64,000 nt of DNA. Origin: Ginglymostoma cirratum. Taxonomy: Eukaryota. Below are positions 5,430-40,655 of the stretch, one piece after another. The stretch spans positions 15,109,734 to 15,173,733 of the forward strand of contig JAHRHZ010000268.1 of assembly GCA_024137785.1 (NCBI GenBank), written 5' to 3'. The notes beneath the pieces were generated by a model. It searched no databases and was not told where the DNA came from. It saw nothing but the letters and a program-made list of their open reading frames with translations. A program made the position numbers and the translations under genes. How positions within the stretch are numbered: the stretch's first letter is position 1; the number at the start of each line of letters is the position of its first letter.

Positions 5430-8400
5430 AGTTAAGGTATGACAAGCCAGCTCAGCTGAGCAGAATGTCTGACCTGTGGCAGGTGGGGAAATGTAGACAC
5501 TTCTCTTGACCTAAACTAGCTAATGTATACTAAATAGCAAGGGTTGCACAAGCTTGAGCTCAAGGGTTTCAGACTTCAAGCAGTGATGAGGTGCAACTGA
5601 GAAGCAGAGAACTATGTTAATAGCACTTATGAGAGGAGGTCACACTCCAATTTAGGAGAAAGCAAGCACATGGAGAATGGTTGAGCATCAGGCAGTCCAA
5701 GAGAAACTGACAGGTAAAGCAGGAACCCACAGAGGTCATGCTCATCCTGTTCTGGATTTTAGTGAGGACAATGGATCCTTAGAGGAGTGCAAGAACAGCC
5801 AAGCCTATGGTGCCACCAGTGGTTCATCTGTACAGGAAGGGAGGGAAATAAGTGGAAAGGCAACAGTGATGGGGCACTACTGTTCAGTTAGGGAAATAGA
5901 TAGGCATTTCTGTGACAATCAACATGACTTCAAGATGGTGTGTTGCCTCCCTGTTGCAAGGATCAAGGATGTCATAGATCAACTATAGGAAATTCTTTCA
6001 GAGAAGACAAACAGCTAGAAGTCGTGTTCCACAATCTAGGCAGGAAGGGGGATATAGTCCTGCAGCTGGAAATTGGGGAGCTGGGTAGAAAATGTACAAG
6101 TAGCATTTATAAAGTAGTGATCCCAAATGACTCCCAATGCTATGTGCCAATGACTACGGAAATCAGAAGATTAATCAGATGAACATGTTGCTGGATAGAT
6201 GGTGTAGGAGGGAGGGCTTTAGATTCTTGGGACATTGCATCTGGTTCTAAGGGAGATGACACTGTACAAATTTGACAGTGGTTGAATCCGGAAAGATCAG
6301 GACTGGGTTCCTTGCCAGATATTTAGCTGGTGAGGATATGGAAAGGGTTTAAACTAACTCATCAGTGATGTGGGAACCAGCAGAGAATATTAAAAGGTAT
6401 TACCAAAATGCCAGGAGATGTAAACAATACTAGAATAGTAAGTTAATATGTGGATTCAAAGTAAGGGAGAAAGTAATGAATTCTAAATCAGGTTTACACT
6501 GTATGTAAATGAGTGCGAAGGGTATAGTTAATATATAAAAAGAAGGGAGCGAAAGGAACAGGTTGCTTTAGGATTATGATGTGGCAATAACTGTGCCTTA
6601 GCTCAAGGAAGGGCAGTTCTGAGTGTTAAATATTTCTGGTAACAAGGTGTTCAGGGAAGAAAAGGGGTTGGCAGTTGGGTTAAGGAGAGCTTTGCAGAAC
6701 TGAAGAAAGAGGACCTCTTCAGAAATTTGAGGACAGAATTGATTCAGCAAGAGCTAATGAATAAGAAGGATGCAGTTACAATGCTCAGTGTAACAGACCA
6801 CCAGTTAGTGGAAAGGGTTTAGATGAACAAATCTACAACTAAATTATAGGGATGCACAAATATCACAGCGTCGTTTTAATAACCCCTTTATCGACTGGAT
6901 TAGCAGTAATGCGAAAGTCAGATGTTCTGAGATCGTGTTCAGGAAAGTTTCTTGCGGCAGTGTGGGGCCAAATTCAAGAAGAAAGGAAACACCTGGTTGT
7001 TGGGAATGGGATGGACCAGGTAGACCTAGTGACAGCGAGGGAACATATTGGGCACGGTGACCATTGTATCGTAAGGGACAACATTGGAAAATCAAGAAAA
7101 TGAATAATCAACTGGAGAGAGTGGTCATCGCTGGGCCCAGAATGGAGCTTGACAGAGTAGACTGGAATCAGAAGTTAGTTGATAAAATAGTAACTGAGCA
7201 ATGGCATTCTTTAAAGAAGAGGTGGTTTTGGTACATTCAAGGTATGTTCTGTCAAAAGTGAAAGGTAGAACAGACAAATCCAGATTTCTGTTGATGTCAG
7301 TGGAGATGGAAATGAAATTCCAGAAATAAAAGTGTGCTTACAACACATGTTAGAGAACAAATATAGTTTAAAAAAAAAACAAATGAACACAAATGGGAGA
7401 TGAAAAACCAATAGGAGAGGCAAAGAGAAAATGTTGGGCAGCTAACATAAAGGGAAACCCCAAAACCTTCTATAGGGACATCAGCAGTTAAAGAGTGGTA
7501 AATATAGGAGTAACACCAATTAAGGACTAGAAAGGGAATTTACACATGGAGGCAAGAGGCTTCGCTGAGATATCACATGAATACTTTGCAGCTTTCTTTG
7601 ACTTGGGCAGAATCTGCTCTGTAGGTAATGCGACAGAAAAGAAAAAGCGATCACAAGAAGGTTTTTTAAAAAGTGATGAGATTTTGGATAAACTGTTGGT
7701 ACTTAAAATTGAAAAGGACCCAGGACTGAATGAGATCAACTAAGCATATTGAAGGAAGTGGATTTCGTAGTCACATTGACAATAATTTTTCAAACTTCCC
7801 TAGCTTTGGGGATAGTGCAGAGGATGGAGAATTACAAAATTACAGAAAAAAACTGGAGTTCAAAAAAAGAGTCACTTGACCCAAAACGTTAACTCTGATT
7901 TCTCTCCACAGATGCTGCCAGACCTGCTGAGCTTTTCCAGCAATTTCTGCTTTTGTTTCTGATTTATAGCGTCTACAGTTTTTTCAGTTTTAGTAAAAAA
8001 AAAGCGTTATTCTAAACAGTGCAGGAGCAGAGAAACTTAGGTGTACATATACATGTCATTAAAGTTGGCAGGACTGGTAGAGAGAGCTGTTAGTAAAGCA
8101 TACAGTATTGTAAGCTCCATTAGTGGAAGCACAATGTACAAGAGCAGGGAAATTATGCTGAAACAATACAGGACACAAGTTAGATTTTAGTTGGAGTATT
8201 TTGTACGGCTCTGGGCACCATTCTGTGTGAAGGATGTGAATGCATGGGTGAGTGTGCAGGAGAGATTTACAAGAATGTTTCCTGGGACAAGAAACTTCAA
8301 TTATTTGCATAGGTTGGAGAGGTTGGGACAGTTTTCTTTCCAGATGGGAAGGCTGAGGGGAGATTTGATAGACATTTTCAAAATCATGAAGGGTCTCGAC

Positions 8401-8730
8401 AAAATAGATTGGAAGAAACTGTTCCTCATTTTGAAAGGTTCGGGAATCAGAAGGCAAAATTTTAAGTTACTTTGCAAAAGAAGCAAATACGAGGTGAGAG
8501 AAATCTTTCTCACACTGAGTGGTCAGGGTTTGGAATGTGCTGCCTGGAAGTGTGATGGAGTCAAGTTCAACTGAGTCATTCAACACAGCATTGAATGATT
8601 ATTTAAATAGAAACAACATGCAGGGCAATGGGGAAAGCCAGGGACTTGGCATTCCCTCAAATTGCTCACAGAGCTTTTGTGGACATTGTGGACTGATTGG
8701 CATCCTGCATCATAAAAATTCTGAGATTCC
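5430..8730 (+). mobile_element. Decayed near-full-length CR1 LINE (ORF1 SGNH/esterase-like plus ORF2 with internal deletion)
   Basis: ORF1 relic ATVMGHYCSVREIDRHFC...VCCLPVARIKDV at 5677-5988. ORF2 relic EYFVRLWAP...VQERFTRMFPG...RLRGDLIDIFKIMKG at 8191-8574. A PLE terminus sits at the deletion point. Confidence 0.82.
7855..7993 (+). mobile_element. PLE terminal-repeat fragment with degenerate hammerhead
   Basis: GAGTT...GAGTCACTTGACCC-AAAACGTT-AACTC followed by CACAGATGCTGCCAGACCTGCTGAGCTTTTCCAGC. Same family as 37540-37675. Confidence 0.75.
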
Positions 8731-9404: not shown

Positions 9405-9975
9405 CAATCACAGAATTATTAAATCATAGGAAGAGGCCATTTGGCCCATTACATACGTATACGATCTCCACTGGATGAACTTAGCTAGTGCCACCCCCTT
9501 CCTTCTCCCTCCACCCTTACATATTGTTCCTTTTAAAGGACAACCCAATTCTCTCTTGCATGGCTCAATATAACTTTCATTAATCGAAACTTCATGTTGT
9601 GCCTTCCAGATCCTGGCACTCATTGTGTGAAAAAAATGTTTTTTTACTGTCATGTCACCATTGCTTCTTTTGGCAATTACCTCAAAGCTGTGCCCTCTTG
9701 CTCTCGATCCTTCTAACAACAGGCACAGTTTCTCCTCCTCTAAGCTGTCCAATCCCTTCATGATTTTGAAACAACTGTATGAAATTTCCTCCCAACGTCT
9801 TATCCAAAGAAAACAGTTTCAACATCTCCAATCTCTCCTACATAGGTGAAGTTCCTCATCTTTGGGACCAATCTTCTGAACCTTTCCTGCAGCCCTTCCA
9901 ATGTCTTCTGATCTTTCTTAAAATGTTGTGCCCAGAACAGTATGCACTATTCAACTGGAGACTGAACCAGTGTTC
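9405..9975 (-). mobile_element. CR1 LINE 3' fragment
   Basis: ORF relic MKGLDSLEEEKL...SRARGHSF...RIWKA and a CR1 tail. Confidence 0.75.
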
Positions 9976-16190: not shown

Positions 16191-16810
16191 GGGTCAAGGA
16201 GGTAGGGATGAGAGGGAGGCTTGGACATGGGATAAGGTCGGGGGTGGGAAGACTTTAAAACTGGTGAATTCCATGTTTAGGCCATCGGGCTGTAGGCTTC
16301 CGAGGCAGAATATGAGGTGTTGCTCCTCCAGTTTGTGGGTGGTGTCATTGTGACGCTGGAGGACGCCCAGCAGGATATGTCACCCAGTGAGTGGGAAGGG
16401 GAGTTAAAATGGTTGGTGACAAGAAGGTGGTGTTGTTTGTCATTTACAGAGTGCAAATGCTCTACAAAACGGTCTCCGAACCCCCGCTTGGTCTCACCGA
16501 CGTAAAGGCCTCATCCCATGTTCAACCCTCCCTCTCATCCCCACCTCCTTGACCTGACACAACCTGTCCATTTTTTTCCCAACTATCCACCCCACCCATC
16601 CCACTGACCAATCCCCACCACTCCCTACCTGCATCCACCTATCACCATCCCACCTACCTTCCCCAGCCCCACCCCTCCTCTTTCTATTTATTTCCCAGCT
16701 CCCTTCCCCTCTCCCCATTTCTGAAGAAGGGTCCCATCCCGAAACATCAACTTTCCTACTTCTCTGATGCTGCCTGGCCTGCTGTGTTCATCCATCTCTA
16801 TACTGTGTTG
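16191..16810. mobile_element. PLE fragment with internal inversion: GIY-YIG on the - strand (16191-16508), terminal repeat with hammerhead on the + strand (16509-16810)
   Basis: The minus strand encodes LYVGETKRGFGDRFVEHLHSV...NHFNSPSHS and, after a frameshift, KLEEQHLIFCLGSLQPDGLNMEF. 16191-16237 is an inverted copy of 16509-16555. CTGAAGA is at 16721 and GAAACATC at 16741. Confidence 0.85.
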
Positions 16811-19173: not shown

Positions 19174-19353
19174 GAGAGATAATAGGTACTGCAGATGCTG
19201 GAGAATCTGAGATAACAAGGTGTGGGGCTGGATGAACACAGCAGGCCAAGCAGCATCACGGGAGCAGGAAAGCTTGACGTTTCGGGCCTAGACCCTTTCT
19301 GATGAAGGGTCTAGGCCCAAAACGTCAAGCTTTCCTGCTCCTATGATGCTGCT
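19174..19353. mobile_element. Fold-back PLE terminal-repeat element
   Basis: Inverted arms at 19249-19297 and 19305-19353 around CTGATG. Possible degraded ~15 bp TSD at 19161-19175 and 19354-19368. Confidence 0.85.
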
Positions 19354-27054: not shown

Positions 27055-27194
27055 GAAACCTTCTCACCGCCTGCTGGAAACCTTCATCAAGAACAGGAAC
27101 ATCGTCACTGCATGTAAACTGGATGGCCCCTTGAACAATATTGCTCTCCTCCCCAGTCACACTGTGTGTGAAATGGGGGAACTGACCCAAATAG
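27055..27194 (+). CDS. PXYLP1: PXYLP1 internal coding exon (not in the ORF track)
   Basis: Pyrimidine tract plus aaag|G acceptor and ATAG|gtgaag donor, 140 nt. Phase-compatible with both neighbouring exons. Encodes (R)KPSHRLLETFIKNRNIVTACKLDGPLNNIALLPSHTVCEMGELTQI(G), containing the conserved CEMGELTQ. Confidence 0.93.
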
Positions 27195-27357
27195 GTGAAG
27201 TACCATGCGACTTTTTTTTTTTTGATGATGCAAGCTGTAAATCTTGTGTGGAGTGTACATGTGCTGCTCCAATGGTGTGAACGGCAGAAGTACAATTACA
27301 CTATAAAGACTGTGTTTGTAGAGAGCATGTGATGCTACACTGATGCAGAAATTTGAG

Positions 27358-27620
27358 TTTTTTTTTATTCACACGACGTTGGCATTGCTAGATAGGCCAG
27401 CATTTCTGCTGGACATTTATGGACAAGGGACGTTTATGAACTAAATAGGTTTTATGACCATTTGTAATGGTTATGTGATCACCATTAGACTAGTCTTTTA
27501 TTCCAGACTTTTTTTATTGGATTCAAATTTCACCATCTGCCAGAACATTATATTCCCAGAACATTAGATTGTGGTTCTGGATTGCTGGTCCAATAGCCTT
27601 ATCATAAGTATCACCACCTT
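27358..27620 (-). mobile_element. Deu-core SINE, internally deleted
   Basis: Shares GGCCAGCATTT, CACCATTAGACT, TTCAAATT...CACCATCTGCC and CCCAGAACATTAG with 50388-50732. Confidence 0.6.
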
Positions 27621-30600
27621 CCTCATCTGATATCAGTGGTATAGTAAACTTACTTTATCAATGCCACTTTTTAAATACCAATAATTTGGATCTGGTCTGA
27701 CACGACAAAACTTTCTAGAGTGATATACATATTGTTGCAGTATATGTATATCGTTGAATTGACCTCGAAGGAAAGTAGGCTTTGAGTAAATAATATGTAA
27801 TGAGAACATCTATGTATAATTGTTTACTTCTAACTTATTTTAGTTCTAATTTCAACCTGTTTTTGTTATATACAGAATAATTGTGTATATTTATTAACTT
27901 CAACAAATGTTATATATTTCAGTTCCTTGATTTATGAAAAATGATACAATATTTGAATTCATAAAGACAATCGAGTTTAAAGTGGGCATCTCTTAAGTGA
28001 AACAAGCAATTGCTAAAATCAGAGTTCAGAGAAAAAAGCCATTCAAACTATGTTCTGAGATCATTTAAATTAATTTATGGTTTGGCTTAGTTTGAAATCA
28101 AAGTACATGGGTGTTTTTACCCACTCACTTAACTTGACAATGTCCTCGTGCAACCTCTTTGTATCCTCCTCACAACATACTTTTCGACTTAACTTTGTCA
28201 TCAGCAATCATGAATACATTATACTTCTTTCACTTATATAGTCATTTTAAAAGAGCGCAAAAGCTGTAGTCCTAGCTAAATTTCTTGTGGTGCCACAATA
28301 GTCACAAATTGATAACCCAAACTGACCTATTTGTTCTTATGCCTTGTTTTCTGTCCTACACATAATCCAGTGTCACTGGAGCAAAAGTCTGCAACTCACT
28401 GCCTGATGTCATTGTGGATGTATCTGCATCAATGGACTTCAATAGTTCATGAAGGTGGCTCAATGCCATCATCTCAAGATTAACTAGTGATAGGCAATAA
28501 TAAATGAGTAAAAATATCCCGCAAATCTTCAGTGCAATAAACTGTTGCACATGCTTTTTGAGAATCCAGATACATTTTGTGCACTGAATTCCCCTTATCC
28601 ACTCTTCTAGTTATATCCTTTAAAACACATATCAGATTTGTCAAACATAATTTCCGTTTTATAAAACTGTGATTCTGTGCAATTGATTTTCTAAGGGCCC
28701 TGCTATCATGTTCCTAACAATAGATTATAGCATTTTCCTACTACGGATATTAGGCTCATTGGCCTATAGTTTGCTTTTTTTACTCTCGCCTTCCCTTCTT
28801 GAATAGCAGGAGAACAATTTCTATCTTTTAAATCCATGGAGCATGCATACAAACAACCTTTGTGCATTGATGGGCGTGTCTTTGACCATTGCCTTAATGG
28901 GGAAATGCTGATTGCAGGAACACTCAGCAGAAATTTAGCAACTGCGCAAAGAAATACACAGTTGGCACTCTATTGCATTCTTAACTGAGAAACATTCAAC
29001 CCATAAAATTTCAAAACAATAAACATTGATTCAGTGGATTGACTGAGAGGTTTCTAAGATTGCTTTTACTGTTAATCGAGAAGTTATGTGATATTCCCTT
29101 TGTTATTCATACTTGTGTGATGATGTGCAAACTCCAGTGGTTGATTTGACAATGTATTCTGGATCTTAATGCTTTTAAAGGTCTGTTTGTGGTAGTGGCC
29201 AGTTCAGTTGCCAACACATTATTTGATTATGCAAGAAAAGTTTAGACTTGAGTCCTGTGAATTGAGTTTATTTGCTGATGTGCAGTTATTGCATGGCAAA
29301 AGACAAAAAAAAAGTGCATGAGGCAACAAATGATTTTTTGATGCAAAACGCAATGTACTGCCTTCAGATGCATAGCATTGTTTGAGAGTAGAGAAAAATG
29401 CAGGATGGGAACAGTTACTGTATATGCAATGAAAGCTCTGTATTGCTGGAATATCTTATTGTGCTCAAAAACTGGATTAGCATGATTATTAAATAAAATC
29501 ATGAATTTTCACCTTGATGACCTCGCAGAAAGCTGGCTTAATGAATTGGTCCTGTGGGAAGTTCAAATTGATCAATTTCTATAATGAGCTTCTGATTTGC
29601 CAAACCAGGTTTCAAGTTGAAAATCCACCCCATATGTTGTGGCTGTGTGCATATGTTTACGTGCATGAACCTAGGGAATTTTTGACATAGGGTCTTATTT
29701 ACATAGTCAGAAATTGTGCCTTACTCGATCCCTGTGAGGGATGGGCTCTGTGGCTAGTTGGGTGGGGGTGAAACTTTAGATGAAAGGAGGCCACAATCTC
29801 ACACTCCAAGTGTGAAACTTAAGTATCAGGGATGGGATTCAGCCATCTCTGCAGGCTCACAAGGAAACTCTTACTTTTCTTTTTCGATAAACAAGTGGTT
29901 TTGATAGCATCATGATACAGGATCCTCTTAGAGAAATGTATAAATCTTGCATTGAGATAGCAGTCAAGCTTTGCTGATATCATTGAAAAATAAAAAGGCC
30001 TTGGAGAGTAAAGTTAAGGGATTTAGAGTGGCACCCACATGAGGGGCTTCATGTATGTGGAGAGACTGGAAAAAGTTCTTAGGGTATTTGATAGAGGTCT
30101 TCAAAATTATGAAGAGTCTGATTCAGTAAACACAAGGAAATTGTTTCCCATGGTAGGAGTTGCGAATAGAACCAGGGACAACAAGAGAAAACATTTTTCC
30201 ACAGCAAGATGCTTCGAAAGGGTCATGGCAGAAGATTGAACTGTAATACTGGTTTGATAAGTATTTTAAAGGGGATAAAAAAACATAAAAATGGGGAAAG
30301 AAGAGGGGAAGGAACTAACTGGCTATCCACTTCGAAGAATGGCATACACACAATAGTTTAATTAGTGCTGTATCATTCTATTGCTGCAATATCTACAATA
30401 TTGATAGTTTTGAAAATATTTAGAGTGTATTTTTGTTACTCTGATGTATGATGGTGTGGCCCACCATTTAACATTGCTTATGTGTGATTGCCATGCAGAG
30501 TATGCAAAGTAGGCTCAAGTAGACTCCTCCATTCAGTTGTCACATCTCACTTTGTATTACAGCTGACTGCCAGCAAAATGGGGCAAAGTGCAAAATAAAA

Positions 30601-30628
30601 CAATTCAATTCTCAGATATAAATTGTAG

Positions 30629-31335
30629 GAGAGATAAAAGGTACTGCAGATGCTGGAGAATCCGAGATAACAAGCATGGGGCTGGATGAACACAGCAGGT
30701 CAAGCAGCATCATAGGAGCAGGAAAACTTGACGTTTCGGGCCTAAACCCTTTATCAGAAATGGGGCAGGGGAAGAGGGTTCTGAAATAAATAGGGAGAGN
30801 NNNNNNNNNNNNNNNNNNNNNNNNNNNNNNNNNNNNNNNNNNNNNNNNNNNNNNNNNNNNNNNNNNNNNNNNNNNNNNNNNNNNNNNNNNNNNNNNNNNN
30901 NNNNNNNNNNNNNNNNNNNNNNNNNNNNNNNNNNNNNNNNNNNNNNNNNNNNNNNNNNNNNNNNNNNNNNNNNNNNNNNNNNNNNNNNNNNNNNNNNNNN
31001 NNNNNNNNNNNNNNNNNNNNNNNNNNNNNNNNNNNNNNNNNNNNNNNNNNNNNNNNNNNNNNNNNNNNNNNNNNNNNNNNNNNNNNNNNNNNNNNNNNNN
31101 NNNNNNNNNNNNNNNNNNNNNNNNNNNNNNNNNNNNNNNNNNNNNNNNNNNNNNNNNNNNNNNNNNNNNNNNNNNNNNNNNNNNNNNNNNNNNNNNNNNC
31201 TCTCCCTATTTATTTCAGAACCCTCTTCCCCTGCCCCATTTCTGATGAAGGGTTTAGGCCCGAAACGTCAAGTTTTCCTGCTCCTATGATGCTGCTTGAC
31301 CTGCTGTGTTCATCCAGCCCCATGCTTGTTATCTC
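30629..31335. mobile_element. Young PLE insertion with inverted terminal repeats flanking a 400-N gap
   Basis: 30664-30799 and 31200-31335 are reverse complements with 1 mismatch in 136 nt. The gap spans 30800-31199. Confidence 0.85.
31238..31273 (+). ncRNA. Minimal type I hammerhead ribozyme motif (PLE-associated) with intact core
   Basis: ATTT-CTGATGA-A-GGGT(TTAG)GCCC-GAAAC-GTC-AAGT. Stem I is ATTT/AAGT, stem II is GGGT/GCCC, and a palindromic ACGT replaces stem III. Predicted cleavage is after C31269. Confidence 0.7.
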
Positions 31336-31382
31336 AATTCTCAAATAGTTTGGCTCTTCTCAATCCCTATTTTTGCTTCCAG

Positions 31383-32314
31383 GTGTTGTCCAGCATCTGC
31401 TGAATGGAGAACATTTGCATGACACGTACATTAAGAAACATAAACTGCTGCCTGATAACTGGTCTACAAAGCATCTGTACGTGGAATCAACAGGAAAAAG
31501 TCGGACACTGCAGAGTGGACTAGCTCTGCTGTACAGTCTCCTGCCAAAATTGGATTGGGGCAAAGTACACATCCGGTACCAGTGGAGCACCATTTTTTGC
31601 TCTAACAGCTGTGACTGTCCAATGCGTAATCACTATCTAGAGGAGGAACAACGACGCCAGTACAATTTGCGGGTTAAAAACAGCCTGTTGGAACAGACAT
31701 ACATTGACATGGCAAAAATTGTGGGGATTCCCACACGGCGGTTAAGAGCAGCTAATCCCATTGACTCCCTGCTATGCCATTTCTGTCACAATGTCTCATT
31801 TCCATGTACAGAATATGGTTGCATTAATTTGAACCACTTTAAAGTCATCAAGGCACATCAGCTGGAAGGTGAGCAAGACAGGCAGAGGAAGAAGTTGTAC
31901 TACAAATATGCACTACTTGCAACTCACCCACTTTTAAACCAGACTGTCACTCGCATGCAACAGGTTGCTCAAGGGAAGAAGGATGAAATATTTGCCCTCT
32001 ACTCTGCTCATGATGTCACAGTGGCACCGCTGCTCAGCGCTTTGGGCATTCCTGATGCCAGTTTTCCTCGATTTGGTGCTCGAATAATCTTTGAAATATG
32101 GCGAAACGGACAGGTGAAAAGACAACTTTTTATTCGTATTCTTTACAATGGCGATGATATCACATTCCAAACTTCGTTCTGCTCTGGGCACAAAGCACAT
32201 TCCAAACAACTCCTCTGTCCTTTTGAGAATTTCCTGAATTTTGTAAGGAAGGACATGTTTGCAGTTTTTAACAGCACAAATTATTATGATGCATGCCACA
32301 GGAGGGTATTTTGA
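31383..32314 (+). CDS. PXYLP1: PXYLP1 terminal coding exon
   Basis: Acceptor ttttgcttccag|GT. Open frame GVVQHL...STGKSRTLQSGLALL...YSAHDVT (HD proton-donor motif)...NYYDACHRRVF-stop. Corresponds to ORF 31373..32314. Confidence 0.97.
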
Positions 32315-32450
32315 ATATCTCAGTTGCTGGAGTTTGTGTAATGCTACATGTTGTGTGTTTTAAATATAATTGATTTGAATCATTGGTGTTATAGTTTGAT
32401 GAGATTGTACCCCCCCACCCCCATGGCAGAGTTGTTTTATTTCCAATGAT

Positions 32451-32456
32451 AATAAA
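32451..32456 (+). promoter_or_regulatory. Candidate polyadenylation signal for PXYLP1 (a second candidate is at 32589-32594)
   Basis: AATAAA about 137 nt after the stop codon, with GT-rich sequence downstream. Not verified by transcripts. Confidence 0.3.
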
Positions 32457-35400
32457 TTATAATGTGGATTGTACAAATCTCATGCTCCAGCTATGTATTG
32501 TGACACTGTGTTCCAGGGATTTGTTATGTCATGTCTTTGTATTGAAAAATTCCATTGTAGCTGGACATGGTTAACTAAAGCTTTCTAAAATAAACCAGGG
32601 ACAGATAGCAAAGGCATGATTACACGTGTTTAATAGTTCTTTAAGAAATGGTGTAGTGTCAGAGAACTTTCAGCAAGCTATCTATATTTAAGAAGGGAGA
32701 TAAGAATATGCCCAGGGAACTATAAACTAGTCAGAGTTACAGTGACTGATTAACAAAAAAAAAATTGAAAAAGAAGAACAATATCTAGAGACTAAAAATA
32801 TAGTACTGAATAATCAATATGTACTGTAAAAGGCAAAATCTTGCTTGCCTCTTGTCATTGAATTCTTTGAAGAGGTAAATGAGAAATCATTAAAAATTGA
32901 ACACTCTTAAATTTGATGGTGGCCTCAGTTAAGAAAGTTAGAAATTAGGATACTCCTGTGATCATGTTGTTCAGTTTTGTATTTTGATATAGCTTTCATT
33001 TTGGCCAACTTAATACTTCATTTCACTTTGGTTCAAAGTAAACCAAGTACCTAGTTTCAAAGGATTTAGGTATCTGCTGAAACTTCCATGATTTAAACCA
33101 ATTGGGACAGATTTAGACCAATTGGTAGTTGAATTTCAAATGAAGTCAAGTTTAAAATGTTCTTTCATACCACAGTAGATTGAGCTGTTATGCACATAAT
33201 GAAAGGTTATATAGAATAAATTTCAAGACTTCCTAACTGATTTGCTCATAACAGTAAGAACTAGTACATGCTACCATGTTGCACACCAATCAGTTGTACA
33301 TGTGGAAATGCTTTCCTCTTAAATACAAGGGAAAGATGGAGTTGCAAGCTTCAATTGACCGAGTAAAGCAAATTTCTTCAACCCACAGCTCAATCAGAAA
33401 CTAAGGGGACATTTTCAAGTAGGTAATCTGTAGCAAATGGAGTGCCAGAAGGGTCAGTATAAGAGCCTGTCCTGTTTAAAATTCACTGCCATGATCTTCT
33501 GGTCCTTCAATAGTGAATGACAAATGCATAGCCCCAAGGATATATGTCGGGACTCCTTGAAGTTGCAACACACCAACTCCATGGAGATTGTCTGGAAAGT
33601 TTGAATTCCTAATGAGAATTCCCTAGTTCCCTAGGACAGTGCTTGAATATCATCCACTCTAAGTTAGGTTTGGCGTGTTGGCAGAGATGAGACTTATTTA
33701 CTGGATATTCAGCAGGAAATGTTAGATAGATTAAAACCATGCCTAATTCCTGGGAAGTCATTGAACTAATGCTACTGACCCCCATGATTTCCCTGAGCCA
33801 TTAAACCTTTTCCCAGTGCCTCAGCCCCTGTCCTGTCAAATCTTCCTGAGCCTCCATTATTCCTCAACCCTGTAACATGCCCTGGTTCTCAAATTTGTCT
33901 CCTTGATCCTCTTGACACTACCCAGAGTCCATAACATATTTGTCTGGACCTCACCACCCTGGCACTGTACCCACCTGCCTCCCACTGACTACCCTACCTA
34001 ATGACACATCTACCTATCACCTCTTCGCTCACGTACTTGTACTAAAGAACTGAAATCTTCTGAGATGTATAAACTTACCAGAATACAGCAATTTGTGCTG
34101 TAAAAAGGGGGCATGATTTCTGCATACATTCTGTTTGCTGCTTCTTCTGACAAATCCCGTGCTCACTGGGTTTTGGATAGATACTGCAATGGAAGGCTGA
34201 CCAAACAAATCAGAGAAAGGTAAGTAGGAAATATTTTTCTCCAGTCTGCCTTGGAACAGATATTCTGCTGACTGGAAGATTTTGATCAACATTAATGACT
34301 AAGATGAAGAGACAAATTAATATATCTAAATTTCCAACGATACAAAACTAGCAGTGAGGAGAACGCAAGGAGTCTCAATGAGATCAAAGCACTTAAGATG
34401 AGTCAGTAACAAGTTGGCAAATCAACTATAGTGTGGGGAAGTGTGAGATTATTCAATTAGGTATCAAGAATAGAAAAATTAAATATTTTATGAAATTTCC
34501 AGATGATGTTCAGAGAGACTTTGATTTACAGGGAACACAAAGCTAGCATATAGGTACAGCAAGCAATTACAAAGACGAATGGTTTCCAAGAATAAACAAG
34601 ACTTTGCCACAGTTGCACAGGCCTTGGGTGAAATTATACTTGGTGTACTGTGTGCAGTTTTGATCTCCATGTTTAAGGAAGGATATACTTGCATTAGAAG
34701 CGGTATAGCAGATATTAACTAGATTGGTCCTTGAGATGGGAGAGTTCTCTCATGGTGAGAGATCATTGCTCTTAAAAATTCATTTACATTTTCTTTCTGT
34801 GCCTGCTATTCTCTGAGCTATAAGCTTTCTTTTCAATAGCATCCAGCTAATCAGCATTCCATTGTTTCTTAAGGATCCCACAACTGTGGATATATTAGCT
34901 TATGTGTAAACTTTGCTGTAATGTTACCTAGTGCCTCTATCTCTAAAAATACCCTAATTTCTGATAGCCAGTTTACTTCTAGTCTATATCTACTCTCACC
35001 GCTCTTAGCAGACACTTGCATTCTGTGCATTTTCTCAGCTGAACTGCAGCAGAACTCGCAGATAATTTCCCCATCTAAAAAAAACAGTTCTCTCCAACCT
35101 ATTTCCATGGCAACCTGTCATACCTATCATGTTCTAAATAGAAATCAACATTCGTTAACTATTAGCTTCAAAACCAAACCTTTGAATGGAAGACCCAGAT
35201 GAATAATTTATATCTCTGATTAACATAGTTCCATCTCTCCAGGATCCCTGATTCCACCAATGAAGTCCATTATTTATCAACTGTTTGCTTCTTTTCACTG
35301 GGAATTACATACATAATTTATATATGTTATTGAAACAATTGTAGACCACCTAGCTCTACACAGACTCCAATGGATTATCATTGTTTGGTTTCTCCTTTCT

Positions 35401-35599: not shown

Positions 35600-36300
35600 T
35601 GCTGAAAAAAGACACACTTTGTTGAAGTTTTTCATTTTGCATTCATCAAGGTAATTTGCAAGAAATACCAAAGAAGAGAGTGCTGATTGGTTGGTAAGTG
35701 AACTTTCATGAGTTGAGGCATTGTCCTGGTGAGTATACTAGACAATTACGTCTGATTGGTAACTCTCATTCACTAAGGCATTGCACTGAGCAACAAACTG
35801 GAGAATGGCTGTCACCTACTTTGGCTGCATTGAAACAGGCACAACGTATGTACATTTTCTTTCTGTCTGCAAAGAAGAGGGCCCTATGTATTAGCAAATG
35901 TAGACTCCAGTACATATAAATGCGCCATACTGTGAGCCTGAATGACAAGTGTAAATCAGTTGCCAGTAATTGCATGCTCAGGATTATATGGCCAATGTTG
36001 TCCATTTGTGCAATCACATTTAATATTAGATGCTGAGATAACAAGGTGTAGAGCTGGATGAACACAGCAGGCCAAGCAGCATCAGAGGAGCAGGAAAGCT
36101 GATGTTTCAGGTCTGGACCCTTCTTCAGAAAACAAAATTACTTTTTTTTTGCTGTAGAAAGGGCCAGACCCGAAACGTCAGCTTTCCTGCTCCTCTGATG
36201 CTGCTTGGCCTGCTGTGTGATTCCAGCTCTACACCTTGTTATCTCAGATTCTCCAGCATCGGCAGTTCCCACTGTCTCTAATATTAGATGCTGTTGTGGG
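35600..36300 (-). mobile_element. Decayed PLE, second family (GIY-YIG C-terminus plus terminus), interrupted by a fold-back element
   Basis: The minus strand gives SNIKCDCTNGQH..NPE..HLYVLESTFANT*GPLLCRQKENVHTLCLF. The terminus TTGATGA-ATGCAAAAT-GAAA-AACTTC is at about 35620-35650. Confidence 0.65.
36036..36278. mobile_element. Fold-back PLE terminal-repeat element with perfect 15-bp TSD
   Basis: TAATATTAGATGCTG at 36021-36035 and 36279-36293. Inverted arms at about 36034-36130 and 36158-36247. Confidence 0.9.
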
Positions 36301-36399: not shown

Positions 36400-37200
36400 C
36401 TAGGGATAGCTCCTTGGGACTGGAAAGGAGTTTGTTGTAGGAGGGGAAAGATCCAGTTGTCTTGGTCTATGCAGGTACCAAAGACATTTGACAAACTAAG
36501 ACAAATACTCTGCTGAGAGACTTTGAGCAGTTAAGGGCTAAATTAGAAAGTAAAGCCTCCTATGATGCTGCTTGGCCTGCTGTGTTCATCCAGCTCCACA
36601 CCTTGTTGTCTCAGATTCTCCAGCATCAGCAGTACCTATTATCTCTGCAGGTAATAATCTCCGGCTTACTACCTAACCCATGAACAAATTGGCATCAGAT
36701 CAAATTAAATCAGAGGATACATCAAAGTTTTGTATGGGAAAAATAGGTTTCAATTGATGGAGCACTCTCTCCTGTACTCTGGAAAGGGGGGAATGTGCTG
36801 TTTAGACATGTAGTAATAAGCTGTCTTGCGGCCAGAGTTCTTATGAACTGTATAGTCAGTACTGTAGAGGATCTTAAACTTAATAGGTCTGGGAGAAGGA
36901 GTGGAGTGTTCATGTGTGAGGAGATTTGGAAAGTTAAAGAGAAAGGACAAAACAGGGCCAAAAGGGACAGAACATACAAACGTAGGAAATAACTTAAGAA
37001 TAGAAAAACATACCCAGTATCGTGATAAGATTGATGAATTGATAGAACAAATAGAAATAAAAGAGGATGATGCAGTAGATTTCAACAGAAACCTGGCTGT
37101 GAGATGGCCAAGATGAGAACTGGATATTCAAGGGTACTTGACATTTTGGTAGATAGGAAAAATGGAAAGGAAGTGGGATAGCCCTGTCAATGGTAGAGTT
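36400..37200 (+). mobile_element. CR1 ORF1 end and ORF2 start relic containing a PLE terminus fragment (36557-36646)
   Basis: Relics VIISGLLP, DKIDELIEQIE and LDIQGY...GSG. The inserted CTCCTATGATGCTGCTTGGCCTGCTGTGTTCATCC...CAGTACCTATTATCTC is PLE-derived. Confidence 0.6.
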
Positions 37201-37539: not shown

Positions 37540-37675
37540 GGGTTATGAGGAAGGGTCAGTGGACCTGCAATGTTAACTCTGTTTTCTCCTCCACAGATGC
37601 TGCCAGACCTGCTGAGCTTTTCCAGCAACTTTGTTTTTGTTCCTGATTTAGAGCATCCGCAGTTCTTTTGGTTTT
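37540..37675 (+). mobile_element. 136-bp PLE terminal-repeat insertion with 14-bp TSD
   Basis: TAAGAAGTTTCAAA at 37526-37539 and 37676-37689. The insert starts at hammerhead stem I (GGGTT-ATGAGGA-AGGGTCAGTGGACCT-GCAATGTT-AACTC). Confidence 0.85.
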
Positions 37676-39803: not shown

Positions 39804-40655
39804 TAGAACATAGAACATAGAACATAGAACATAGAACATAGAACATAGAACAATACAGCGCAGAACAGGCCCTTCGGCCCTCGATGTTGTGCCGCCCTGT
39901 GAACTAATCTAAGCCCATCCCCCTACACTATCCCATCATCATCCGTATGCTTATCCAAGGACTGTTTAAATGCCCCTAATGTGGCTGAGTTAACTACATT
40001 GGCAGGCAGGGCATTCCACGCCCTTACCAATCTCTGAGTAAAGAACCTGCCTCTGATATCTGTCTTAAATCTATCACCCCTCAATTTGCAGCTATGCCCC
40101 CTCGTACTAGCCGACGTCATCATCCTAGGAAAAAGACTCTCACTGTCCACCCTATCTAATCCTCTGATCATTTTGTAGGTCTCTATTAAATCCCCTCTTA
40201 GCCTTCTTCTCTCCAATGAGAACAGACCCAAGTCCCTCAGTCTTTCCTCATTAGACCTTCGCTCCAGACCAGGCAACGTCCTGGTAAATCTCCTCTGCAC
40301 CTTTTCCAATGCTTCCACATCCTTCGTGTAATGGGGCGACCAGAACTGTACACAATATTCCAAGTGAGGCCGCACTAGCGTTTTGTACAGTTGCAGCATG
40401 ACATCACGGCTCCGGAACTCAATCCCTCTACCAATGAAACCTAACACACCTTCTTAACAGCACTATCAACCTGGGTGGCCAATTTCAGGGATCTATGTAC
40501 CTGGACACCAAGATCCCTCTGCACATCCACACTACCAAGAATCTTTCCATTGACCCAGTATTCTGCCTTCCTATTATTCTTCCCAAAGTGCATCACCTCA
40601 CACTTATCTGCATTGAACTCCATTTGCCACCTTTCAGCCCAATTCTGCAGTTTAT
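39804..40655 (-). mobile_element. Young 5'-truncated CR1 LINE with (TGTTCTA)7 tail
   Basis: ORFs 40441..40623 and 39923..40447 (LYKTLVRPHLEYCVQFWSP...RRLRGDLIETYK...RFFTQRLVRAWNALP) are separated by one frameshift. A perfect 7-mer tandem tail lies at 39804-39852. Confidence 0.92.

What the first reader, a model, noticed from the sequence alone, without database searches (positions are those of the whole stretch)
31238..31273. Intact hammerhead-ribozyme core in sense orientation ~113 nt upstream of the last PXYLP1 splice acceptor
Seen: ATTT-CTGATGA-A-GGGT(TTAG)GCCC-GAAAC-GTC-AAGT on the same strand as PXYLP1. The CUGAUGA and GAAA core and a GUC cleavage triplet are intact, with a 4-bp stem I and a 4-bp stem II. 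Established: Penelope-like elements carry minimal type I hammerheads whose stem III is reduced to a short palindrome (here ACGU) and which are thought to cleave as dimers. This is the only copy I found in the window with no core substitution; its antisense twin at 30730-30757 reads CTGATAA. Inference: if it cleaves, it would cut the PXYLP1 pre-mRNA just before the branch point and acceptor of the exon encoding most of the enzyme. That would make a transposon-donated self-cleaving RNA a potential modulator of a host gene.
Basis: partly seen in the sequence, partly recalled or inferred. Interest (0 to 1): 0.75.

Follow-up and report, generated by a model that had tools for sequence, protein, structure and literature searches.

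The report
Passenger Penelope hammerhead in shark intron
The motif matches a minimal hammerhead ribozyme, but it is one of about 28,000 identical copies left by a young Penelope-type retrotransposon in this shark genome, and an inverted twin in the same PXYLP1 intron is predicted to pair with it, so it is likely a silent passenger and not a gene switch.

Summary
The motif is confirmed at 31238-31273, and its cut site lies 113 nt before the last PXYLP1 exon. The regulatory reading is not supported.

The motif is the repeat end of a young Penelope-like element. The exact 34-mer occurs 27,672 times in this genome, and intact cores 94,944 times. A core G8A change (59 copies) is as common as a loop change (66), so an intact copy is the default.

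Here it is the right arm of a typical inverted insertion: 135/136 identical arms, a 10-nt target duplication, a tail on one arm only. Both arms lie in one intron. The arm duplex (-283 kcal/mol) is predicted to swallow the core, and no sense partner for dimer cleavage is visible in that intron. A related shark's contig appears to lack the insertion. A likely-RNA run shows the exon about ten times deeper than the unspliced junction. No read ends pile up at the cut site (an insensitive test).

Family-level lead: at least 6,582 young copies begin 3-4 nt before the core, versus 398 at the cut site and 156 at a control position.

The parts
31238..31273 (+). Minimal type I hammerhead motif: core 31242-31248 and 31262-31269, stem II 31250-31261, predicted cut after 31269
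   Evidence: Sequence; descriptor search; features listed in PMC4209133
31200..31335 (+). Right arm of the Penelope-like insertion (repeat end without the tail); continues into the N run on its 5' side
   Evidence: family ORF with RT and GIY-YIG ends about 215 nt upstream in longer copies
30664..30799 (-). Left arm, inverted twin, 135/136 identical; the one difference is G8A (a U-G wobble in the RNA hairpin)
30631..30663 (-). 33-nt tail, on the left arm only; 12 nt of it are complementary to the exon start at 31389-31400
30800..31199 (.). 400 N between the arms; content unknown (runs of 10, 100 and 400 N recur in many fetched loci, as assembly gaps would)
30605..30614 (+). Left copy of the 10-nt target-site duplication, followed by a 16-nt filler (30615-30630)
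31334..31343 (+). Right copy of the 10-nt target-site duplication (first 2 nt shared with the element end)
   Evidence: the relative's contig match ends exactly at 31334
27195..31382 (+). Last PXYLP1 intron (GT...AG), holding both arms; the host's 3' splice region 31344-31382 lies downstream of the insertion
31383..32314 (+). Last coding exon of PXYLP1 (histidine phosphatase branch 2)

Best explanation
The motif is the hammerhead-like repeat end of a Penelope-like retrotransposon that likely inserted recently as an inverted pair in the last PXYLP1 intron, where the twin arm is predicted to pair with it in the pre-mRNA, so it likely neither folds nor cuts and leaves with the intron as a passenger. 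Shown: family identity, copy number, inverted anatomy, target duplication, tail on one arm. Inferred: the insertion arose by priming at both strands of one nicked site, one end starting reverse transcription at the far site (with tail) and the other at the near site (no tail). Predicted: the left arm is transcribed first and the right arm zips onto it as it emerges, burying core, stem II and the ACGU dimer palindrome. The intact core reflects a young copy of a master element, not selection at this locus.
For: Family: longer copies carry an ORF with YIDD RT, a CX4CXXC linker and GIY-YIG upstream of the same repeat. Copy number: 27,672 exact 34-mers, 70,736 with relaxed stem II and N7, 94,944 with any intact core; reversed controls 0, 0, 1. 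No selection after insertion: G8A 59 vs loop G>A 66. Inverted pairs are usual: 12 minus-then-plus pairs within 2.5 kb among the 100 listed exact copies, 0 plus-then-minus, 1 direct. Of 10 pairs parsed (12 given), 9 have the tail on one arm only and 7 have an exact 9-15-nt duplication; this anatomy is described for PLEs. Folding 30500-31420 with the N unpaired: 136 of 136 arm pairs above 0.9, stem II probability about 1e-19, duplex -283 kcal/mol against -9.3 for the isolated motif. Run X1: exon contig from 31381 at depth 182 vs unspliced junction contig at 18.9. Literature: a single min-HHR showed no cleavage, dimers low activity; the anole PLE hammerhead cleaved only with its protein, and no RNA-seq ends were found at its cut site; introns cut by a hammerhead were still spliced (second-hand).
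Against: No cleavage or splicing experiment was run; the folding is an equilibrium model. The 400 N could hide a second sense copy. Stem II forms locally (p>0.9 in isolation) and could form before the long duplex. Family RNA is abundant (23,922 of 12.9 million reads laid, nearly all on the arm), so partners in trans exist. The end test is weak: fragmented poly(A) reads from all copies, and PXYLP1 depth only 0-4 in that run. X1's library type is not on record, contig depth is a poor measure of expression, and only 23 letters of its junction contig lie in the element. The relative's 583 letters were not seen. Subfamily differences fall mostly at N7, loop II and one-sided stem changes, which suggests that the motif matters to the master elements, though covariation did not beat shuffles (369/500).
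Confidence: 0.82

Rival explanations
1. One reading: the hammerhead cuts the PXYLP1 pre-mRNA 113 nt before the last exon, as a trans dimer or helped by the element's protein, and so lowers or tunes the mRNA.
For: Core, G10.1-C11.1 pair, extra nucleotide and ACGU palindrome are intact and in sense. Family RNA is plentiful. Protein-assisted cleavage exists for one PLE. Conserved intronic hammerheads exist in amniotes.
Against: Twin arm sequesters the motif; weak stem I; no visible cis partner; tens of thousands of equal copies; no selection; site apparently empty in a relative; exon contig ten times deeper than the unspliced junction; no end pile-up.
Confidence: 0.04
2. The insertion affects splicing through structure, not catalysis: the 136-bp hairpin ends 46 nt before the acceptor, and the left arm's tail would pair with the acceptor G and the first 18 exon bases, looping out the branch region; the duplex could also be edited by ADAR.
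For: 12-nt exact complement at 31389-31400; tail-exon duplex -27.8 kcal/mol; pair probabilities 0.84-1.0 at 17 of the 19 positions 31382-31400. It is the only non-PLE tile of 1,270 with a match of 12 or more (the other 10 read as PLE tails).
Against: Found after the fact. It is the only one of 62 insertion flanks with a match of 10 or more, so it is no family targeting rule. The acceptor is also predicted paired without the arms. Spliced-type contig dominates in X1. The A>G at 31270 in RNA (5%) is explained by 2,402 genomic copies, and the A in the TAG loop shows no A>G above 4%.
Confidence: 0.1
3. The pair is partly an assembly product: the arms are mirrored around a gap, or the single G/A difference is assigned to the wrong arm, so the sense copy would be the dead one.
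For: Arms are identical for 47 nt on each side of the gap and differ at base 48; some other loci look mirrored around 400 N (L065/L066). No read here links G31247 to the unique flank.
Against: Different outer ends (tail vs none), an outer 10-nt duplication, and gap-free pairs of the same build and size (459-939 nt between anchors vs 644 here). The variant is only 89 nt from unique sequence.
Confidence: 0.04

Closest known systems
Minimal hammerheads (min-HHR) of metazoan Penelope-like elements (Cervera and De la Pena 2014, PMC4209133)
   Same: Type I core, extra base between 9 and 10.1, G10.1-C11.1, palindromic 15.2-16.2, short helix I, no helix III; in the terminal repeat of a PLE; mostly single or in opposite-strand pairs 100-700 bp apart.
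   Different: Helix II is 4 bp (7-8 in Schistosoma). About 95,000 intact cores here against about 9,000 in Xenopus tropicalis and 4,000 in coelacanth, by other descriptors. Sharks are not named in the parts read.
Poseidon element of Anolis (PAc; Frangieh et al. 2024, PMC11167929)
   Same: Two reverse-transcription starts that give copies with and without a 30-40-nt tail; both strands cleaved and extended; hammerhead upstream of the starts; uncleaved RNA is the main template.
   Different: This family has the CX2-5CXXC linker, which ties to Neptune and Nematis, not Poseidon. No activity was tested here.
Conserved intronic hammerheads of amniotes (RECK, CTCL, DTNB; review PMC6155905)
   Same: Type I hammerhead in sense inside a host intron.
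   Different: Those are conserved across classes and depicted with tertiary contacts; this one is a young, apparently lineage-specific, multi-copy repeat end with an antisense twin.
Non-LTR retrozymes (PMC7229834; bioRxiv 10.64898/2026.07.22.740005)
   Same: PLE-related, non-coding, hammerhead-bearing repeats; reported in one chondrichthyan.
   Different: Retrozymes are direct tandem units able to dimerise; this locus is an inverted pair, and only 1 direct neighbour pair was seen among 100 listed copies.

Membership tests
Minimal type I hammerhead of PLEs | Core C3-A9, G12-A14, A15.1, U16.1, H17 | tested here: met
Minimal type I hammerhead of PLEs | Extra base after A9, G10.1-C11.1 pair, palindromic 15.2-16.2 | tested here: met
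   against the list
Minimal type I hammerhead of PLEs | Helices I and II supported by compensatory change | tested here: inconclusive
   17 copies: helix II 95.6% paired, helix I 75%; mostly one-sided changes; not above shuffles
Minimal type I hammerhead of PLEs | Self-cleavage as dimer or with protein | not testable with these tools
   No end pile-up, a weak test
Canonical type I hammerhead (Rfam) | Match to a hammerhead covariance model; helix III present | tested here: not met
   (no hammerhead hit at E<=10); no helix III
EN+ Penelope-like element | ORF with RT followed by GIY-YIG, upstream of the repeat | tested here: met
   In other copies of the family: GIY-YIG above Pfam cut-off, RVT_1 below cut-off (E 0.002) with YIDD. 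Not readable at this locus.
EN+ Penelope-like element | Inverted truncated copy, 30-40-nt tail on one end, target duplication | tested here: met
Neptune clade | CX2-5CXXC linker between RT and EN | tested here: met
   (shared with Nematis)
Neptune clade | Placement in an RT phylogeny | not tested
   No reference PLE sequences were fetched
Domesticated intronic ribozyme | Conserved at the orthologous site and under selection | tested here: not met
   Site appears empty in one relative (inferred); no family-wide selection on the core
Non-LTR retrozyme | Two or more direct tandem units with a hammerhead | tested here: not met
   Inverted pair; the 400 N are unread

The most novel reading that the evidence does not exclude
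The family, not this locus, holds the news. This shark's Penelope-like RNA starts 3-4 nt upstream of the hammerhead core, so the ribozyme sits at the very 5' end of the transcript, and the genome has fossilised both forms: at least 6,582 mini-copies of about 100-130 nt that begin at the ribozyme's 5' edge (uncut RNA) and a smaller class of 398 that begin exactly at the cut site (against 156 at one control position). That would be genomic evidence that a PLE hammerhead cleaves in vivo, in a genome with about 95,000 intact cores, with intronic copies such as the PXYLP1 one disarmed by their inverted twins.
Probability: 0.2. Interest if true: 0.6.

Novelty: new member of a known kind. Interest (0 to 1): 0.25.

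Why it matters
At this locus, little: it shows that an intact ribozyme-like core near a splice site is expected by copy number alone in sharks (one exact copy per about 157 kb of assembly, one intact core per about 46 kb). For the family, the role of PLE hammerheads in vivo is open in the papers read. A genome with tens of thousands of young copies lets one map RNA 5' ends from insertion boundaries and test for cleavage without an experiment.

Tried and rejected
Rfam scan of 28000-34000: three chance hits, no hammerhead. Loose core pattern: chance level. Full-length element with a 5' repeat: not found; both extended loci are 5'-truncated, so the ORF start relative to the hammerhead is unknown. 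Covariation test on 17 copies: not above shuffles. RNA editing as a sign of hairpins: A>G at 31270 is genomic; A>G at 31289 is 12% in RNA against 557 exact genomic copies, denominator not counted, left open. Tail homology as a targeting rule: 1 of 62 flanks, rejected. Source of the 16-nt filler: only one 8-mer match in 27195-32400. Run search: no RNA holder listed; run X24 gave 8 reads, none on the exon. The read lay covered 31200-32400 only, so the splice joint, the left arm and the empty allele were not seen as joints. A 200-kb genome sample was 35% N and gave 21 hits, too few for an end profile. Earlier findings of the scan: none.

Full report
Observation. The sequence at 31238-31273 is as described. 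The host is PXYLP1: the last exon's product matches His_Phos_2 and PXYLP1 proteins, best the zebra-shark one at 99%, so the genome is a shark close to that species. Mapping that protein gives exons at about 2004-2132, 27055-27194 and 31383-32314. The last intron is 27195-31382 and the predicted cut after 31269 lies 113 nt before the exon. A minimal-hammerhead descriptor finds only this copy in the window. Rfam finds no hammerhead, which is unsurprising for a form without helix III (inference). In isolation stem II is predicted to form (p>0.9), stem I is not (p<0.02), and the lowest-energy fold pairs the two halves of the core with each other.

What it belongs to. The 136 nt 31200-31335 match 40 scored genomic places at 97-100% (773 candidates). 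In the longer of the 30 fetched loci an ORF ends about 215 nt upstream; it has a YIDD reverse transcriptase, a CX4CXXC linker and a GIY-YIG domain. This is an EN+ Penelope-like element; the linker points to Neptune or Nematis, and no tree was built. Exact counts in the own genome: 27,672 for the 34-mer 31239-31272, 70,736 with relaxed N7 and stem II, 94,944 for any intact core with GGG...CC stem ends (full stem pairing not enforced), with reversed controls of 0, 0 and 1. These are assembly counts: 35% of a 200-kb sample was N, some arms may be mirrored at gaps, and haplotype duplication was not checked. The G8A variant occurs 59 times and a loop G>A variant 66 times. Inserted copies thus lose a catalytic G as often as a loop G, about 0.2% each, and an intact core at any young copy is expected.

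Anatomy of this insertion. The motif lies in the right arm of an inverted pair, 30664-30799 and 31200-31335, identical at 135 of 136 positions, around 400 N. The left arm carries a further 33-nt tail, the right arm does not, and a 10-nt duplication flanks the whole (30605-30614, 31334-31343) with a 16-nt filler on the left. The same build recurs: of 12 paired loci given to, 10 were parsed; 9 have the tail on one arm only, 7 have an exact 9-15-nt duplication, and 7 are gap-free. Among the 100 listed exact copies there are 12 outward-facing pairs within 2.5 kb, no inward-facing pair and one direct pair. Passages of bioRxiv 10.1101/2021.04.23.441226 describe this arrangement, the one-sided tail and the assembly trouble it causes. 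PMC11167929 ties the tail to two reverse-transcription starts and shows both target strands cut and extended. PMC4209133 notes opposite-strand pairs 100-700 bp apart.

How it most likely behaves. Both arms are in one intron and the antisense arm is transcribed first. Folding 30500-31420 with the N unpaired gives all 136 arm pairs above 0.9; the single mismatch is a U-G wobble; hammerhead stem II falls to about 1e-19; the duplex is -283 kcal/mol. This is a prediction. A minimal hammerhead needs a partner: a single motif showed no cleavage and dimers little, and the anole one cleaved only with its protein. No intact sense partner lies in the readable intron; the nearest sense copies, at 16721 and 19299, are 12-15 kb upstream and altered in the core. 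Even a cut might not matter: introns cleaved by a hammerhead were still spliced, whereas a fast HDV ribozyme blocked splicing (second-hand).

Reads (stretch 31200-32400, four runs). X23, poly(A) RNA of the same species label: 23,922 of 12,895,792 reads were laid, nearly all on the arm and so from many copies; depth is about 4,600 per direction at the cut site; no place shows a pile-up of ends; the PXYLP1 exon has depth 0-4. The test is insensitive to cleavage ends. X24 gave 8 reads. X1 (contigs, library not on record, likely RNA): a contig starts at 31381 with depth 182 and a 98-nt contig spans 31313-31410 with depth 18.9, which I read as spliced and unspliced forms; only 23 of its letters are in the element. 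X13 (related organism B, likely DNA): one 1,636-nt contig matches 31334-32385 with 15 differences. The match stops at the first base of the duplication, as an empty site would. I did not see those letters.

Results against my reading. The gap may hide a sense copy. Family RNA is abundant enough for trans partners. Subfamily changes fall mostly at N7, loop II and one side of stem pairs, so the motif may work for the master elements, although covariation did not exceed shuffles. The left arm's tail is complementary to the exon start (12 nt exact, 31389-31400; -27.8 kcal/mol). This was the only such non-PLE match in 1,270 tiles and the only one of 10 nt or more in 62 insertion flanks. It gives a non-catalytic route to an effect on splicing, which I rate above cleavage. 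The G8 assignment to the sense arm rests on the assembly alone.

Family-level lead. Patterns with three forced mismatches before a fixed 26-mer count copies that begin at a given base. Results: 4,916 at 31239 (3 nt before C3), 1,666 at 31238, 398 at the cut site 31270, 156 at control position 31280. All are lower bounds. On contig C1, 15 of the 56 exact copies fall in the first two classes (searches matched by hand). Of 12 loci read for 31239 (10 distinct sites), 11 start there, several as stand-alone 95-130-nt insertions; of 12 read for the cut site, 10 start there and 2 are longer copies with small insertions. The simplest reading is an RNA 5' end at the ribozyme's edge; the bases there fit an initiator consensus (recalled, untested), and Penelope has an internal promoter in its repeat. 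Most copied RNA was then uncut, as found in vitro. The 2.5-fold excess at the cut site rests on one control with a somewhat different denominator and is inconclusive.

Novelty and sources. PLE minimal hammerheads are known. Searches for a shark account: shark + hammerhead ribozyme + Penelope gave 1 paper, which mentions the shark only as a shape; hammerhead ribozyme + elasmobranch gave 0; Penelope + Neptune + Chondrichthyes gave 1, a 2026 preprint that reports tandem retrozymes in one chondrichthyan (its supplements are closed and may list this family); shark genome + Penelope + transposable elements gave 3, seen as listings only. Axolotl has up to 120,000 retrozyme copies, so the count here is no record for hammerheads overall. 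Seen: PMC4209133 and PMC11167929, parts 1-2 of 4; the 2026 preprint, parts 1-2 of 5 and passages; 10.1101/2021.04.23.441226, PMC7229834, PMC2377424, PMC6155905 and PMC2995048, passages only; no supplements.

Verdict. Real motif, known kind, ordinary setting. Passenger 0.82, structural effect on splicing 0.10, cleavage-based regulation 0.04, assembly product 0.04. Interest 0.25, most of it from the family-level counts.

Noticed in passing
own genome; L053-L076: Thousands of young copies begin exactly 3-4 nt before the hammerhead core (4,916 + 1,666), many as stand-alone 95-130-nt insertions with target duplications; 398 begin at the cut site, 156 at a control position.
   Followed up: partly
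own genome: 94,944 intact hammerhead cores of several subfamilies, about ten times the Xenopus tropicalis figure in PMC4209133 (different descriptor).
   Followed up: partly
window 30646-30663 with 31382-31400: The antisense tail is complementary to the start of the last PXYLP1 exon (12 nt exact) and is predicted to pair across the acceptor.
   Followed up: partly
window 19174-19353, 36034-36269, 16678-16809, 36557-36646: Further copies of the same family: two more short inverted pairs and two single copies, with altered or missing cores; those at 16678 and 19174 lie in the previous PXYLP1 intron.
   Followed up: partly
window 31286 and 31289 (family reads): A>G in 12% of RNA reads at each site, against 1.3% and 0.5% in the relative's DNA contigs; 557 exact genomic copies carry the 31289 change. 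Editing or a few highly expressed copies.
   Followed up: partly
window 31245-31289: The ATG inside the core opens a 14-codon frame whose stop overlaps two further ATGs; subfamilies with A at N7 lack that first ATG.
   Followed up: no
window 7911-7941, 37582-37669; L034, L047:7498-7581: A second, more distant repeat family; copies in L034 and L047 carry an intact core with a longer stem II and a GUU triplet.
   Followed up: no
window 39923-40453 (-), 8191-8574 (+), 9408-9818 (-): Frames that look like C-terminal fragments of CR1/L2-type LINE proteins (recalled resemblance).
   Followed up: no
L065/L066: Both sides of a 400-N run mirror each other, internal junction included, which suggests that some gap-flanking pairs are assembly echoes.
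   Followed up: no
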